Shown: positions 22,205 through 47,370, counted from the first letter of the stretch. The stretch is DNA of 64,000 bases from an uncultured archaeon (GCA_964486045.1 CAZALK010000013.1:46841-110840); one strand, 5' to 3'. The notes: generated by a model from the letters alone, not told the origin. Program-made: numbers and translations.

Positions 22205-23542
22205 ATGCCAACCAATAAACCTCATTTGAATCTAGTTGTTATTGGCCATATCGACCATGGTAAATCGACTTTGATGGGTGCGTTGCTCATAGAATCAGGT
22301 GCAGTAACCGATAGAGAAGCTCGCGAATTAGAATCGCTTGCAAAAGAATACGAAAGAGATTCTTGGTCTTACGCCTTCGTTTTTGACAAGCTTAAGGAAG
22401 AAAGACAACGGGGAATTACTATTGATTTAGCTTTTCGTAAGTTTGAGACTTCTAGTCGATACTTTACGATTATTGATGCACCAGGCCATGCAGACTTTGT
22501 AAAGAACATGATAACGGGAGCCTCTCAAGCAGATGCTGCTATTCTAGTCGTTTCTGGAAAGAAAGGTGAAATGGAAGTTGGAGTTGCTGCGAATGGTCAA
22601 ACACGTGAACACGCATATTTAGCACAGACCTTAGGTGTAAAACAACTCGTCGTTGCCGTAAATAAAGCTGACGTTTATGAATATAGTGAAACTAGGTTTA
22701 ATGAAGTAAAAGAATCAGTCGGAGATCTTCTCAAAAATATTGGTTTTAAGCTTAAAGATGTACCTTTTATCCCCACAAGTGGGATGGCAATGGACAACTT
22801 ATCAAAGAAAAGCGACAAACTTTCTTGGTATGATGGTCCTACTTTAATTGAAGCTCTCGACCAATTTGTGCTTCCTGAAAAGCCAACTGGCAAACCTCTA
22901 AGAGTTCCTATTCAAGATGCTTATAGCATCAAAGGACAAGGTGTAGTTCCTGTTGGTAGAATTGAAACGGGAGTGTTAAAGAAAGGAGATACTGTTATAA
23001 TCATGCCCACCGGCTTCCAAGGTGAAATAAGATCAATTGAAATGCACCATGAAGAAATAGATCAAGCTGAACCTGGTGATAACGTAGGTTTCCTTATCAG
23101 AGGGCTTTCGCTAGAAGATGCTAGCCGGGGAGATTGTATGGGTCATCCAACTGATGTTCCTACAGTAATTAACCCCAATGGAAAATGGACAGGACAAGTC
23201 ATTGTAATATGGCATCCTACTGCTATCGCACAAGGTTATACACCTGTTGTTCATGCACACACAGCTCAAGTTGCCGCCAAATTCACCGGCTTATTGAAAA
23301 AACTAGATCAGAAAACTGGTGCGGTTATTGAAGATTCCCCTAAGTTTATCAAGAGAAATGAAGCCGCAATTGTTGAGTTATCTCCAATTAAGAAAATGTG
23401 CCTCGAGAAATATGAAAGTTTTCCAGAAATGGGTAGGTTCGCCGTTCGGGATATGAGCCGTACCGTTTGTGTTGGAATCGTAAAAGACATTGATCCAGGA
23501 ACCTCGGTTGTAGACGAGAAGAAATTAGACGAGAAGAAATAA
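22205..23542 (+). CDS. tuf: Elongation factor 1-alpha
   Basis: GHIDHGKST, RGITID, DAPGH, NKAD, GRFAVRDM. Confidence 0.98.
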   Translation: MPTNKPHLNLVVIGHIDHGKSTLMGALLIESGAVTDREARELESLAKEYERDSWSYAFVFDKLKEERQRGITIDLAFRKFETSSRYFTIIDAPGHADFVKNMITGASQADAAILVVSGKKGEMEVGVAANGQTREHAYLAQTLGVKQLVVAVNKADVYEYSETRFNEVKESVGDLLKNIGFKLKDVPFIPTSGMAMDNLSKKSDKLSWYDGPTLIEALDQFVLPEKPTGKPLRVPIQDAYSIKGQGVVPVGRIETGVLKKGDTVIIMPTGFQGEIRSIEMHHEEIDQAEPGDNVGFLIRGLSLEDASRGDCMGHPTDVPTVINPNGKWTGQVIVIWHPTAIAQGYTPVVHAHTAQVAAKFTGLLKKLDQKTGAVIEDSPKFIKRNEAAIVELSPIKKMCLEKYESFPEMGRFAVRDMSRTVCVGIVKDIDPGTSVVDEKKLDEKK

Positions 23543-43367: not shown

Positions 43368-44735
43368 AGTTCCAAAAATTTCAGGGATTAAGAGAATAAC
43401 ATTTGTGCCTTTTTCATGTTCTCCTTCAATTCGATCTTCAGCCCAGATAATTCCGTCAAAACTATTGATAACTTCTCTAACTAATAATAATCCTAAACCA
43501 ATTCTTTTATGGGTTTTAGGTTTTTCATTTATTTTATAAAAGATATTTTTTTTCATCTTGTCAGGCATCCCAATACCGTTATCTCTGAATTCCATCTTTA
43601 TATATTTTATATTTTCTTCCTGGTGTTTAGAAATTTTTATTGTTAATTCTACTTCCGGATTATCGTTATATCGAATTGAATTATTTAATAATATACGAAA
43701 AACATCGAATAATATCTTATTTGCATATACTACAGTAGGTTTTTCCCTGGAATTGATATTGACTAGAATTTTCTTTTCTAGAAATTTTGTCTTCACATAT
43801 TCTATAGCCTCCCCTAAGATCTCATCTATTTGTATTGAGGAGTTTTTGATTTTCCCTGATTCAAGATCTGAGAGTTTTCTTACATTTACTCCAAGTTCTG
43901 CACCTCGATTCACCTGAATTTTAGCTATTTTTACCAGTTTATTAATATTCTTTTCATTTTTATGTTTCACTGCTTCTTGAGCAATTATTTCTAATGAAAA
44001 TTCTAAATTTTGAAGAATATTGTTTATATCATGGACAAAAAGATCTTTATAAAATTCAGCTCTATTATAGGCTGAGCGATAATTATTTTCTGATTTTAAT
44101 ATTTTCTCTTCGATAACAGCGACAACTCCTGTAATAAGCATCATAGTAGCCATGACTATTCTAGAAAATTCTAAAAGATCCTCTGCTCCCGGAAATCCTT
44201 GATCACTAAAAATCCTCGTCGTTACTTGTAATAATCCAGAACTCATAATAAAACACATAAATGCATGGGTAGGTGTTCTTTTTCTCAAATAAATTCTTAC
44301 GATCAAGAAAAGTGTGAAGAACAACAAAATTGAAATGAAAATTAGTAACCCAAGAGATGAAATTTGTTGCTGCAAAAGTAATACAACCATAGGAACTGTA
44401 AGGGCCTTTATCTCTCTTGAAAAGGTTCGATAATACTCAAGAAACACAGCGAAAATGAATATTATAAGAGATAAAGCTGAAAATGACATAGAAATTATCT
44501 CAAAAGTATCATACAATTCTTGAGAAAATAACCTAAAAACTTCAGATATAGAAGCTGCAATATACGCATATAACCAAGGAATTAAATTCCTTCGTTTGAT
44601 GGACACACCTGCAAACAATAATGTGGCAAGGATTACAACAATGGAATTAGATAAATCCATAATAAAATAATCTGTCAATTTTCCACCCTTACTACATTTT
44701 AATTGAAGATTTAAAATAATAATAGAGGGAATCAT
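43362..44735 (-). CDS. Membrane-bound sensor histidine kinase (no adjacent response regulator)
   Basis: Multiple N-terminal TMs; HDINNILQ H-box; DNGIG and GLGL boxes. Confidence 0.9.
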   Translation of the reverse strand: MIPSIIILNLQLKCSKGGKLTDYFIMDLSNSIVVILATLLFAGVSIKRRNLIPWLYAYIAASISEVFRLFSQELYDTFEIISMSFSALSLIIFIFAVFLEYYRTFSREIKALTVPMVVLLLQQQISSLGLLIFISILLFFTLFLIVRIYLRKRTPTHAFMCFIMSSGLLQVTTRIFSDQGFPGAEDLLEFSRIVMATMMLITGVVAVIEEKILKSENNYRSAYNRAEFYKDLFVHDINNILQNLEFSLEIIAQEAVKHKNEKNINKLVKIAKIQVNRGAELGVNVRKLSDLESGKIKNSSIQIDEILGEAIEYVKTKFLEKKILVNINSREKPTVVYANKILFDVFRILLNNSIRYNDNPEVELTIKISKHQEENIKYIKMEFRDNGIGMPDKMKKNIFYKINEKPKTHKRIGLGLLLVREVINSFDGIIWAEDRIEGEHEKGTNVILLIPEIFGTL

Positions 44736-45087
44736 TTTAAATTTACACTAAATAAAACAAATTCAGCTTAAAACTCAAATTTGTTGCTTAAATTCATAAA
44801 ATACTATTGATTTTTACCGATCACATATTAAATATTTATTGTAAACTCTTTAATTATTCCGCTGTTGGCTCTCTTTATTTGGCTTACCATACCGAAACCT
44901 TGTTATATCTCTATAAAATTAGAATAAATTAGCTTATATAAAATAAATAGTCTGTTTGAAAATGTCAATCAAATCAAAAAGCAAAGATCATAAAATTTTT
45001 TACTCTTGAGATATTTAAGAATTTAGAAAATAAAAATAATGATTAAAAATATTTAAAAAATAAAATTTTATGTGATGTGACTTATTT

Positions 45088-47370
45088 ATGGTTAAAGTAA
45101 AGAACCCAGATGAGATAGTAAAGCTCGTAACTTCCGGATCTTATGAGAGAAAGAGAATTTTCAGTATAACCGCGCATTTTTAATAAGGTTTCCTTATTAT
45201 AGCGTAAATTGATCACGGGAAAACAACTGCTACTGATTATCTTCTACGTAGAGCAGGGCTCATGCGGCCAGAAGATGCTGGTCAACTTCAAATGACTGAC
45301 AGCGACGAGGAAGAACAGGCACGTGGGATTACCATTTTTACAAGTGTAGTTTTACTTGCATTCAATGACTCTAGAAAACCAGATGACACTGAACCTTATG
45401 TTATTCAATTAAATGATACTCCAGGTCATATTAGTTTTACCGGGGAGGTATCACGAGCTCTAAGAGGAAGCGATGGTGCAATAATATTGGTCGATGCTCT
45501 TGAAGGAGTAATGACCCAGACAGAAACTAATATTCGTTTATCCGTTGGTGAAGAATTCTGTAAACCAGTTCTATTCATTAATAAAGTTGACCGACTTATT
45601 AGTGAGCTTAAGTTAAGTCCTCAAGATACTTTTGCTAAAATAGATAAAATTACACGCGAAATTAATGAACTTATAAGAAAAGTGAGACCTGAGGGTTCGG
45701 GTTGGACCATTGATTTTGCTAAAAATTCAGTTGCAGTTGGTTCAGCAAAACATGGATGGGGTTTTACATATGAGATTTTAGTTGAAAAAAAAATGAAACC
45801 TCAAGATGTTTTCGCAAAATATACTGAAGGTGACATTCAGTGGTTAAGAGATAATTTACCTTTAGATGAGCCTCTGTTAAGGATGATCGTAGACCATCTT
45901 CCAGATCCTATTAGTGCTGCTAAATATAGAATACCTCATATCTGGGGAGGAGACCTAAGTTCTGAACTTGGACAATCTCTCGTGAAGAGTGATCCAAATG
46001 GGCCTCTCTACGGAATGATAACTAAGATTTTCTTAGACCCAAAAAGGAATTATCAAGCTACTCTTATCGGTCGTGTTTTTTCGGGTACGTTCAACCAAAC
46101 AGATTCAATTTATCTAATTAATAGCGATTCAAGCAACCGTGTGAAGCGGCTTGGAGTTATGGAGATTACTGATCTCTTAGATATTCCCCGGATTCCGGCA
46201 GGAAATTTATTTGCATTATTTGGTTTTGTATGCCCGGCTGGTGAAACATTTATGTTGACAAGTGAGGTTCCTAAAGATAAAGAAGAGAGGAAAAAGCTTC
46301 ACCCCTTCGAGAAAATTAATTATGCGTGCGAGGCTGTGGTTTCGCGGAGTATTAAACCTAAGGACCATCATCTCATTGATAAATTAGATGATGTAGTCGG
46401 AAAATGGCTTAAAGCGAACCCTGAAGCTGAATATCGAAGAGATGAAGAATCTGGTGAATTTGTGCTCTCTGGAATAGACCCTCTCCAAATTGAAATCCTG
46501 ACAAAGAGAATCAACATCCAAGTACCAATTGACATTGGGGAACCAATTATTATTTATAGGGAAAAAATTACGAAAAAAAGTCCGGAATATCATACAAAAT
46601 CTGCGAACACTCACAATCGTATAGTGTTATACATTGAACCTTTAGACGAAACAACAGAAAAGCTAATCGAAACCGGTAAAATTAATGATTTACAAAATGA
46701 CAAGGATAGAGCTAAAATTCTTAGGGAAGACGCAGATTGGGATGCTAAGGAAGCAAGGCGAATTGTTGATGTATATCAAGGAAGTCTCCTTGTCAATGGT
46801 ACTTCGGGATTACAGAGATTTGATCGCGTGAAGTCCTATTTGAGTGCTGCTTTTAGAGATTGGCTTGGTAATTGTATAATAGCAAAAGAACCCGCTACAG
46901 GAGTAAAAGCTGTATTTACAGATTTAGTCATCCATGAAGACCCAAGACATACGCAATATGGCCAGATTGCGGGAATGTTTTTCTCAGCTTTATCACTTGC
47001 GATGTTGGAAGCAGATTCTCATCTCTTTGAGCCAGTCCAGAAAATTGATGTTAAAACACCTCAAGGAACAGAAGGAGGGGTAACAGCCATTATCTCTAAG
47101 CGTCGAGGGAGGATAACTAATGTTATTCCTGAAGGTGAATACGTTAGGATCAAAGGTCAGATTCCTGCTGCCGAGGTAATTGGCATTGCAGACGATATCC
47201 GAGGCTCAACGCAAGGGAGGGCTTTTTTTGGATACGAATTTAAAGGCTTCGAGAAGGTTCCTGCTTCTACTGAAGAAGATCTCATCATGGAAATCCGCAA
47301 ACGCAAAGGACTGCCCCTAGAAATGCCTAATAGAAGGAGTTGGGAGCGTTTTATTTATAAACGTTCTTGA
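45088..47370 (+). CDS. fusA: Elongation factor 2; join(45088..45177,45208..47370), 750 aa after removal of the 30-nt insert
   Basis: Exon 1 MVKVKNPDEIVKLVTSGSYERKRIFSITAH + exon 2 IDHGKTTATDYLLRRAGLMRP...; EQARGITI, DTPGH, NKVD; domain IV HEDPRH; IRKRKGL. Confidence 0.93.
45178..45207 (+). other. Putative bulge-helix-bulge mRNA intron in EF-2
   Basis: 30 nt with 3 in-frame TAA. Central helix GCGC(45172-75)/GCGU(45202-05); bulges AU^U and AA^A, whose canonical cut positions equal the junctions that restore AHIDHGKTT; 8-bp hairpin UAAUAAGG/CCUUAUUA. Confidence 0.85.

What the first reader, a model, noticed from the sequence alone, without database searches (positions are those of the whole stretch)
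45088..45261. Candidate bulge-helix-bulge (tRNA-type) intron inside the GTP-binding P-loop of the EF-2 mRNA
Seen: the called EF-2 ORF (45262) lacks the G1 motif. ATG 45088 gives 30 codons ending ...RIFSITAH, then 30 nt (TTTTAATAAGGTTTCCTTATTATAGCGTAA, three in-frame TAA), then IDHGKTT in the same frame. Only excision of 45178-45207 restores AHIDHGKTT; shifting the junction by 1 nt gives Q or F instead. Independently, the RNA folds as a BHB: a 4-bp central helix GCGC(45172-75):GCGU(45202-05), 3-nt bulges AUU (45176-78) and AAA (45206-08), and an intron hairpin UAAUAAGG-UUU-CCUUAUUA. Known: archaeal EndA cuts after the second nucleotide of each bulge, here exactly 45177^45178 and 45207^45208, and RtcB ligates. 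mRNA introns of this type are rare and are best known from crenarchaeal cbf5. The exon-exon outer helix is weak, so the motif is a relaxed BHB. The EF-1alpha and aIF5B HIDHGK motifs in this window are uninterrupted. Inference: synthesis of an essential translation factor depends on the tRNA-splicing machinery, possibly as a regulatory switch resembling eukaryotic non-spliceosomal HAC1/XBP1 splicing. I am not aware of a description in Asgard EF-2 but could not search.
Basis: partly seen in the sequence, partly recalled or inferred. Interest (0 to 1): 0.95.

Follow-up and report, generated by a model that had tools for sequence, protein, structure and literature searches.

The report
tRNA-type mini-intron splitting Asgard EF-2
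A 30-base insert shaped like the introns that archaea cut out of tRNAs splits the GTP-binding motif of an elongation factor 2 gene in a Loki-type Asgard archaeon, so its mRNA almost certainly has to be spliced, which published work documents for only one other archaeal protein gene (cbf5).

Summary
Window 45178-45207 is a 30-nt insert with three in-frame TAA codons between ...SITAH and IDHGKTT of an aEF-2 gene. Most sister genomes lack it and read AH|IDHGKTT without a break, which fixes the junction to the base. The insert forms a 4-bp central helix, two 3-nt bulges and a hairpin. It has no outer exon helix, so it is a relaxed HBh'-type BHB motif.

- **Spread in EF-2:** 26 of 150 related Promethearchaeota genomes carry the same 30-31-nt architecture at five positions in the first 65 codons of EF-2.
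- **Structure support:** 96% of helix cells pair, against 33-46% in slid controls, with compensatory changes.
- **Exon 1:** it is under purifying selection (dN/dS 0.04-0.14).
- **Same genome:** like inserts split RNA polymerase A', a thiolase, an AIR-synthase-like gene and a nucleoside phosphorylase.
- **Machinery:** EndA alpha and beta subunits and RtcB are present.

No RNA data could be obtained, so splicing is inferred. The HAC1-like regulatory idea has no support. This scan has noted such introns before in other Asgard genomes and elsewhere in this genome. I found no published description.

The parts
45088..45177 (+). Exon 1 of aEF-2: 30 codons, MVKVKNPDEIVKLVTSGSYERKRIFSITAH
   Evidence: It is conserved as the N-terminus of uninterrupted orthologs. 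dN/dS is 0.04-0.14 among the four genomes with an intron at this site.
45172..45175 (+). 5' strand of the 4-bp central helix H (GCGC, exon 1)
   Evidence: It pairs with 45202-45205 in the MFE fold. The helix is 100% paired in 25 aligned instances with three sequence versions. All 4 alleles with this intron use the Ala codon GCG here; none of about 20 intronless alleles listed does.
45176..45178 (+). 5' splice-site bulge AUU; predicted cut 45177^45178
   Evidence: The cut after the second bulge nucleotide equals the junction defined by intronless orthologs.
45178..45207 (+). 30-nt intron with three in-frame TAA codons
   Evidence: It is absent from most sister genomes and present at the same site in G018, G076 and G077. 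It is present in DNA of two samples.
45179..45201 (+). Inner intron hairpin h': 45179-45188 pairs with 45192-45201, with a U.U mismatch at 45180/45200 and loop 45189-45191
   Evidence: The stem is kept through changes on both sides in other genomes (A-U to G-C at two pairs).
45202..45205 (+). 3' strand of central helix H (GCGU, intron)
45206..45208 (+). 3' splice-site 'bulge' AAA; predicted cut 45207^45208. No exon helix closes it (HBh' type).
   Evidence: The columns flanking the motif show no pairing (read from alignment A2).
45208..47370 (+). Exon 2 of aEF-2: IDHGKTT... for 720 codons plus the stop
   Evidence: Pfam GTP_EFTU, EF-G domains II-V. TIGR00490 aEF-2 at 594 bits.

Best explanation
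Window 45178-45207 is a tRNA-type (bulge-helix-bulge) mini-intron in the pre-mRNA of an aEF-2 gene of a marine-sediment Promethearchaeota (Lokiarchaeia) archaeon. In the transcript, the last exon-1 bases GCGC pair with intron bases GCGU. Each strand carries a 3-nt bulge 3' of this 4-bp helix, and the rest of the intron is a hairpin stacked on it. The heteromeric (alpha-beta)2 splicing endonuclease EndA is expected to cut after the second nucleotide of each bulge. RtcB is expected to join the exons, giving ...SITAH-IDHGKTT..., an intact P-loop. Unspliced mRNA can only yield a 31-residue peptide. What is shown: the DNA insert, its exact boundaries, the conserved and covarying structure, selection on both exons, and the presence of the enzymes. 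What is inferred: cleavage and ligation in vivo. The intron belongs to a population of near-uniform 30-nt introns (4-bp helix, 3-nt bulge, 9-bp stem, 5-nt loop, 4 bp, 3 nt). These sit in many protein genes of this genome and are gained or lost quickly between species.
For: (1) Boundaries. About 40 orthologs read AH|IDHGKTT without an insert. The insert is exactly the 30 nt predicted by cutting after bulge nucleotide 2.
(2) Recurrence. 26 of 150 genomes of the order, all in one family and spread over six genera, carry 28 inserts of 30-31 nt at five EF-2 positions: H30|I31, D32|H33, inside K35, D61|S62 and D63|D64. All have the same architecture.
(3) Covariation. On 25 aligned instances, 96.2% of cells pair against 33-46% when partners are slid. 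Seven of 13 pairs change on both sides. No shuffle of 500 reaches the score. The central helix is 100% paired with three different sequences.
(4) Exon-intron co-variation. GCG is used only in alleles with the intron. In RNA polymerase A', GGAC/GUCU becomes GGGC/GCCU.
(5) Exon 1 has dN/dS 0.04-0.14 with saturated dS among intron-bearing genomes.
(6) Same genome. 30-nt inserts of the same shape lie inside single Pfam domains of RNA polymerase A' (GHFGH|IELA), a thiolase and an AIR-synthase-like protein, and at the start of the a/b domain of a nucleoside phosphorylase (DKHS-T-GG). The genome scan shows a spike at length 30: 12 against about 4.
(7) Machinery. EndA alpha (Y/H/K present), EndA beta (no His) and RtcB are encoded. 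Asgard EndA is reported as the (alpha-beta)2 type with the broad-specificity loop (PMC5829648).
(8) The insert is in DNA of independent samples and assemblies.
Against: There is no RNA evidence. No RNA run holds the stretch, so neither spliced mRNA nor circular intron has been seen. The outer exon-exon helix of the canonical motif is absent, so cleavage depends on a broad-specificity EndA that has not been assayed for this lineage. Thermodynamic support for the single sequence is modest (z -0.84 for 86 nt, -2.53 for 49 nt). A second aEF-2 paralog exists, so the cell might tolerate inefficient splicing.
Confidence: 0.88

Rival explanations
1. Conditional splicing as a regulatory switch: the intron is removed only under some conditions, tying EF-2 supply to the state of the tRNA-splicing machinery.
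For: The insert sits in a translation factor, and unspliced mRNA yields only a 31-aa peptide. RtcB is also the ligase of XBP1 splicing (own knowledge; cited in PMC5829648).
Against: Sister species differ in having or lacking the intron. On the EF-2 tree the D63|D64 intron needs 6 changes among 27 rows, as scattered as shuffled labels. Like introns sit in unrelated metabolic genes. No Ire1-type RNase domain was found, though the control for that search was uninformative. The motif is a BHB, not the paired 7-nt loops of HAC1 (own knowledge).
Confidence: 0.07
2. Translational bypassing: the ribosome hops over the 30 nt, as in T4 gene 60 or the yeast mitochondrial byp elements, and the RNA is never cut.
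For: The gap is short, starts close to a stop codon and holds a hairpin. Many genes of the genome carry such inserts.
Against: Bypassing needs matching take-off and landing codons. Here CAT stands against TAA. The other sites show GAT against AAA, AAT or TAG, and CAT against TAA. The conserved feature is the pairing of exon bases -6 to -3 with intron bases 25-28, plus two 3-nt bulges. That is what EndA needs, not what hopping needs. One instance is 31 nt long and one lies inside a codon.
Confidence: 0.03
3. Dead or dying gene: a small insertion has disrupted this aEF-2 copy, and the paralog on contig C10 does the work.
For: A second aEF-2-like gene exists (34% identity). Public gene calls treat the locus as a truncated ORF.
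Against: 720 codons downstream remain open in every intron-bearing genome. Exon 1 has dN/dS 0.04-0.14. The inserts keep their structure through compensatory changes. The single-copy RNA polymerase A' gene carries the same kind of insert.
Confidence: 0.02
4. Assembly or sequencing artefact.
For: None found.
Against: The same insert stands in contigs from two samples at depth 272 and 83. A diverged version occurs in another study. The insert is in four independently assembled genomes at this site and 19 at the D63|D64 site.
Confidence: 0.005

Closest known systems
cbf5 pre-mRNA intron of Crenarchaeota (Desulfurococcales, Sulfolobales; Watanabe 2002, Yoshinari 2006, Yokobori 2009 = PMC2738675, read)
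   Same: It is a short intron (16-44 bp) in a protein-coding gene. It has an unconventional BHB motif, is cut between the 2nd and 3rd bulge nucleotides, depends on a hetero-oligomeric EndA, sits in a catalytic-motif codon, and shows lineage-specific loss.
   Different: The phylum differs (Asgard/Promethearchaeota) and so does the host gene (aEF-2). There are five alternative positions within 65 codons of one gene rather than one site. The architecture is nearly fixed at 30 nt. Many other genes in the same genome are hit, and turnover between sister species is much faster. cbf5 splicing is shown by cDNA and in-vitro cleavage; here it is inferred.
Non-canonical (HBh') tRNA introns of Thermoproteales and of Asgard archaea (Marck and Grosjean 2003; PMC5829648; bioRxiv 10.64898/2026.10.13.758758)
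   Same: The same motif geometry and the same expected enzymes. The host lineage has heavily interrupted tRNA genes: ARAGORN finds only 29 tRNAs in a 99% complete genome, 18 of them called with introns.
   Different: The host RNA is an mRNA, so there is no tRNA body to help recognition. The exon part of the motif must also encode conserved amino acids.
HAC1/XBP1 unconventional mRNA splicing (Ire1 plus RtcB or Trl1)
   Same: It is non-spliceosomal: protein endonuclease plus ligase, acting on an mRNA, with RtcB as ligase in metazoa (own knowledge).
   Different: The cleavage motif (twin 7-nt loops) and the nuclease (Ire1) differ, and that splicing is regulated by stress. No Ire1 RNase domain was found here (control uninformative), and there is no sign of regulation.
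Translational bypass elements (T4 gene 60; byps of Magnusiomyces mitochondria)
   Same: Short inserts bearing stop codons and hairpins, in many protein genes.
   Different: Matching take-off and landing codons are absent here. The conserved pairing is of the BHB type.

Membership tests
Archaeal BHB intron (EndA substrate) | 4-bp central helix flanked by two 3-nt bulges on opposite strands | tested here: met
   GCGC 45172-75 pairs with GCGU 45202-05; the bulges are AUU and AAA. The helix is 100% paired in 25 instances with three sequence versions.
Archaeal BHB intron (EndA substrate) | Cuts after the 2nd nucleotide of each bulge give the functional junction | tested here: met
   The predicted junction equals the uninterrupted sequence of about 40 orthologs. 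Shifts of +/-1 nt change H or I.
Archaeal BHB intron (EndA substrate) | Inner helix h' stacked on the central helix | tested here: met
   A 9-10 bp hairpin starts right after the bulge. It is 94% paired across instances, and 4 pairs change on both sides.
Archaeal BHB intron (EndA substrate) | Outer exon-exon helix h (canonical hBHBh') | tested here: not met
   The bases 5' of H and 3' of the second bulge do not pair at any of the sites (alignment A2). This makes it the relaxed HBh' form, as in cbf5 and non-canonical tRNA introns.
Archaeal BHB intron (EndA substrate) | Genome encodes a broad-specificity EndA ((alpha-beta)2 or epsilon2) and the ligase RtcB | tested here: met
   Two PF01974 genes of 201 and 200 aa. 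One has the catalytic Tyr/His/Lys context and one lacks the His. RtcB scores 557 bits. The specificity loop L1 was not examined.
Archaeal BHB intron (EndA substrate) | Intron removed from the RNA in vivo or in vitro | not testable with these tools
   No RNA run holds the stretch. A junction-pattern scan of metagenome contigs found only unrelated genes.
Pre-mRNA BHB intron (cbf5 type) | Lies inside a coding sequence whose two parts are one conserved protein | tested here: met
   Exon 1 plus exon 2 equals full-length aEF-2 as in intronless orthologs. Both exons are under purifying selection.
Translational bypass element | Identical or near-cognate take-off and landing codons at the edges of the gap | tested here: not met
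   CAT against TAA here; GAT against AAA, AAT or TAG at the other sites.
HAC1/XBP1-type splicing | Ire1 kinase/RNase and twin stem-loops with 7-nt loops | tested here: inconclusive
   PF06479 was not found in the genome, but the control genomes gave no signal either. The RNA motif is a BHB.
Known RNA families (group I/II introns, riboswitches and others) | Match to an Rfam covariance model | tested here: not met
   No Rfam match at E <= 1 in 44700-45700. 30 nt is far too short for a ribozyme intron.

The most novel reading that the evidence does not exclude
The EF-2 insert is one copy of a mobile, fast-turning-over population of minimal 30-nt BHB introns. These colonise mRNAs of Lokiarchaeia, preferentially at conserved motifs in the 5' part of genes. 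They may spread by reverse splicing, gene conversion or sliding: the D61|S62 and D63|D64 introns are near-identical and sit 6 nt apart on the exon repeat ACAGAT-TCAGAT. Routine protein-enzyme splicing of many mRNAs, including core information-processing genes, would then be normal in close prokaryotic relatives of eukaryotes.
Probability: 0.35. Interest if true: 0.92.

Novelty: new member of a known kind. Interest (0 to 1): 0.8.

Why it matters
Published work documents endonuclease-type mRNA splicing in archaea essentially only for cbf5 in Crenarchaeota. Here the same mechanism is strongly implied for a translation elongation factor. In the same genome it is also implied for RNA polymerase A' and several enzymes. 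The organism belongs to the archaeal lineage closest to eukaryotes.

If confirmed, three things follow:

- **Expression of core genes:** it would depend on the tRNA-splicing machinery.
- **Coupled transcription and translation:** these cells would have to cope with introns that carry stop codons.
- **Intron evolution:** gain, loss and sliding of introns could be studied in a prokaryote with dozens of natural alleles.

There is also a practical point. Gene callers truncate these genes: the public product of this locus lacks the P-loop. Asgard proteomes and phylogenomic marker sets are therefore systematically damaged at such loci.

Tried and rejected
**RNA evidence**
- No listed holder of the stretch is on record as RNA.
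- Read laying could therefore use only DNA contigs.
- A scan of metagenome contigs for the spliced junction (ACYGCGCATATTGAYCAYGG) gave 13 hits. All are unrelated sequences, one of them a bacterial LepA-like gene.

**Genome scan controls**
I used the length distribution as an internal control instead.
- A relaxed scan with small ORFs has a high background, about 35-50 hits per length, and shows only a modest excess at 30 nt. I do not give a genome-wide count.

**False positives of the scan**
- HdrA and an FlpD/MvhD-like gene were flagged. Their interruptions are in-frame TGA codons at conserved Cys positions, that is selenocysteine, not introns.
- Candidates in L037-L040 found no support in Pfam.

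**Other checks**
- Rfam found nothing.
- The Ire1 RNase domain was not found, with an uninformative control.
- A full-length comparison of 64 named orthologs showed no further stop-bearing 30-nt inserts outside the first 65 codons.
- The literature searches found no report of BHB introns in Asgard protein genes. The library does not hold most subscription journals.

Full report
**1. What is in the sequence**

- On the + strand, ATG 45088 opens 30 codons, MVKVKNPDEIVKLVTSGSYERKRIFSITAH, ending at 45177.
- The next 30 nt (45178-45207) read F**GFLIIA* in the same frame, with three TAA codons.
- From 45208 the frame reads IDHGKTTATDYLL... and stays open for 720 codons.
- Pfam finds GTP_EFTU and EF-G domains II to V. 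The part from 45208 starts at position 12 of the GTPase model, so the first beta-strand and the first half of the P-loop are missing from it and lie in the upstream 30 codons.
- The ORF an ordinary gene caller takes starts at Met 45262 and lacks G1. Exactly this 702-aa product is what public collections hold.
- The two other translational GTPases of the window, at 22253 and 40177, have intact HIDHGK.

**2. The organism and the DNA**

- The window is C13:46841-110840 of a 5.18-Mb, 45-contig genome that is 99% complete.
- Its closest relatives are marine-sediment MAGs labelled Promethearchaeota (Lokiarchaeia).
- The insert is present in contigs of two samples of one study (depth 272 and 83, two differences in 501 nt).
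- A contig of a different study spans the site with no gap and with changed letters. The insert is therefore not an assembly artefact.

**3. Orthologs fix the boundaries**

- Among 24 sister species, most read ...ITAH IDHGKTT... without interruption. The extra DNA in this genome is therefore exactly 45178-45207.
- Moving both cuts by one base changes His to Gln or Ile to Phe.

**4. The structure**

- GCGC (45172-75) pairs with GCGU (45202-05).
- AUU (45176-78) and AAA (45206-08) are 3-nt bulges, one 3' of the helix on each strand.
- 45179-45201 is a hairpin stacked on the helix.
- RNAfold recovers the helix and the hairpin. The z-score is -0.84 for 86 nt and -2.53 for the 49-nt core.
- Cutting after the second nucleotide of each bulge is the rule reported for EndA and for the cbf5 intron (PMC2738675). 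It gives precisely the ortholog-defined junction.
- No exon-exon helix closes the motif. It is therefore the relaxed HBh' form, which only (alpha-beta)2 and epsilon2 endonucleases are reported to cut (PMC5829648).

**5. Recurrence and covariation**

I searched the first 200 codons of an intronless ortholog against 154 genomes of the order. There were 150 matches, and 26 of them had stops or extra length. Cutting these out showed 28 inserts at five positions:

| Position | Genomes |
|---|---|
| H30\|I31 | G000, G018, G076, G077 |
| D32\|H33 | G065; G142 (31 nt) |
| inside the K35 codon | G058 (a less clean motif) |
| D61\|S62 | G064, G069 |
| D63\|D64 | 19 genomes |

- G018 and G142 carry two inserts each.
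- All 26 genomes lie in one family, across six genera. None of the 18 matched genomes of the three other families has an insert.
- Every instance has the same plan: exon bases -6 to -3 pair with intron bases 25-28, then a 3-nt bulge, a 9-bp stem, a 5-nt loop and a 3-nt bulge.

On the gap-free alignment of 25 instances (A2) the structure test gave the following:
- 96.2% of cells form standard pairs, against 33-46% with partners slid by 1-3 columns.
- 7 of 13 pairs show changes on both sides.
- No shuffle of 500 reaches the observed covariation score.
- The central helix is 100% paired with UCAG/CUGA, GCGC/GCGU and ACRG/CUGU.

Caveat: many rows are related, so the shuffle counts overstate the support. 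The slid controls and the three independent helix versions are the firmer evidence.

The exon part also co-varies with intron presence. All four alleles with the H30|I31 intron use the rare Ala codon GCG, and none of about 20 intronless alleles does.

**6. Selection**

- Among the four genomes with the H30|I31 intron, exon 1 differs at 19-27 of 90 bases but at only 3-7 of 30 residues.
- dN/dS is 0.04-0.14 where it is computable, with dS saturated.
- The downstream 720 codons are open in all intron-bearing genomes.
- A 30-codon ORF that ends in a stop has no reason to be conserved unless it is joined to the rest.

**7. The same thing elsewhere in the genome**

I scanned the genome for the motif combined with a requirement that excision joins two open frames. 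The result spikes at length 30:
- With at least 8 stem pairs there are 12 hits, against about 4 for neighbouring lengths.
- With at least 9 stem pairs there are 7 hits, against about 1.5.

Read-through translations place the inserts as follows:

| Gene | Motif at the insert | Pfam result |
|---|---|---|
| RNA polymerase A' | GHFGH\|IELARPV | Rpb1 domain 1 matched 2-312/312 across the insert |
| Thiolase | NYCASGM\| | Thiolase_N matched 1-258/260 across the insert |
| AIR-synthase-like protein | not recorded | inside the AIRS N-terminal domain |
| Nucleoside phosphorylase | DKHS-T-GG | at the start of the Glycos_transf_3 domain |

- A Ras-family GTPase, a second AIR-synthase-like gene and a mevalonate kinase (31 nt, ILFGE|HFVVYG) look the same but are less firmly validated.
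- For RNA polymerase A', about 40 of 54 genomes of the genus lack the insert. G000, G017 and G080 carry it, and several more break at the same place.
- In that gene the central helix changes from GGAC/GUCU to GGGC/GCCU.
- First readers of other windows of this genome listed further cases. I verified only the ones named here.

**8. Machinery**

- The genome encodes two EndA-family proteins of about 200 aa. One has the catalytic Tyr, His and Lys context. The other lacks the His, as expected for alpha and beta subunits.
- It encodes one RtcB.
- ARAGORN finds only 29 tRNA genes, 18 of them called with introns. This fits the heavily interrupted Asgard tRNA genes described in bioRxiv 10.64898/2026.10.13.758758.

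**9. Evolution**

- On an EF-2 tree built from the exon sequence downstream of all the inserts, the D63|D64 intron needs six changes among 27 rows. That is as many as shuffled labels need.
- Well-supported sister pairs differ in state.
- G000 (H30|I31 only) is sister to G013 (D63|D64 only), with G018 (both) just outside them.
- The D63|D64 introns of different genera are clearly homologous, so precise loss, or gain by recombination, must be frequent.
- The D61|S62 and D63|D64 introns are near-identical. They lie 6 nt apart on the exon repeat ACAGAT-TCAGAT and differ in the one base that re-pairs the helix, which suggests sliding. This is an inference.

**10. Rivals**

- **Ribosomal bypass.** It predicts matching take-off and landing codons, and none of the sites has them. 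It also does not predict the conserved BHB pairing.
- **Pseudogene.** The selection data and the insert in single-copy RNA polymerase A' contradict it.
- **Artefact.** Excluded by the evidence in section 2.
- **HAC1-like regulatory switch.** It cannot be excluded but has nothing in its favour. The intron is dispensable between sister species, and like introns sit in unrelated genes.

**11. Caveats**

- No RNA data exist for this organism in the runs served.
- The gene is one of two paralogs that score alike against the aEF-2 model, 594 and 597 bits, both under the equivalog cut-off.
- The interrupted copy keeps an HxDxxH motif in domain IV that the other copy lacks. Which of the two is the translocase is not shown.

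**12. Novelty**

- Five full-text searches found BHB introns in protein genes only for crenarchaeal cbf5, and none for Asgard archaea.
- This scan has noted the same kind of intron many times in other Asgard genomes, once with an RNA-derived contig lacking the intron, and elsewhere in this genome. I did not check those notes, apart from the cases named above.
- Mechanistically this is a new member of the cbf5 kind. The multiplicity, the uniform 30-nt form, the several sites in one gene and the fast turnover go beyond what is described for cbf5.

Noticed in passing
L031:241-270 (G000 C13:44101-44130, 2.7 kb before the window start): A 30-nt BHB-type insert with TAA splits GHFGH|IELARPV of RNA polymerase A'. 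It is also present in G017 and G080 and absent in about 40 genomes of the genus. The central helix shows exon-intron covariation, GGAC/GUCU against GGGC/GCCU.
   Followed up: yes
L032:314-343; L033:500-529; L034:1010-1039 (minus strand): 30-nt inserts of the same architecture lie in a thiolase (at the active-site CASG motif), an AIR-synthase-like gene and a thymidine/AMP-phosphorylase-like gene (DKHS-T-GG). Pfam domains run across or abut them.
   Followed up: yes
L146:46-76; L144 (minus strand); L143: Probable further introns: 31 nt in mevalonate kinase (ILFGE|HFVVYG), 30 nt just before the P-loop of a Ras-family GTPase, and 30 nt in a second AIR-synthase-like gene.
   Followed up: partly
L036 (G000 C7:190688-192493, minus strand) and L145 (G000 C17:6117-6524): In-frame TGA codons sit at conserved Cys positions of HdrA (TDDCSI*ILGP) and of an FlpD/MvhD-like protein (GADGVIING*YFGEC). 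They are probably selenocysteine. ARAGORN also finds a tRNA-SeC. My scan flagged them as false 'introns'.
   Followed up: partly
whole genome G000: ARAGORN detects only 29 tRNA genes in a 99% complete genome, 18 of them called with introns. Most tRNA genes are probably too interrupted to be found.
   Followed up: no
L047, L058 (D61|S62) compared with L003 and others (D63|D64): Two near-identical introns sit 6 nt apart on the exon tandem repeat ACAGAT-TCAGAT. Their 3' helix strands differ by one base (CUGU against CUGA). This is a candidate case of intron sliding.
   Followed up: partly
window 45178-45207 and the loci above: All validated inserts lie in the first 40% of their genes and inside very conserved motifs (P-loop, zinc clamp, HSTGG, CASG). 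This recalls the cbf5 intron in the catalytic Asp codon and the siting of inteins. The bias was not tested statistically.
   Followed up: no
L041 (G000 C10:60407-62506): A second aEF-2 paralog (34% identity, 738-aa open frame) is present in most genomes of the genus. It lacks the HxDxxH motif of domain IV that the interrupted copy keeps.
   Followed up: partly
window 45262-47370: Public collections hold the truncated 702-aa product that starts at Met 45262 and lacks the P-loop. Gene callers mis-annotate these loci.
   Followed up: yes
window 45316 (loose end in run X4): A contig of an unrelated 2025 data set carries the 3' end of the D63|D64 intron joined to GAAGAGGAG. Relatives with that intron therefore occur in other habitats or studies.
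   Followed up: no
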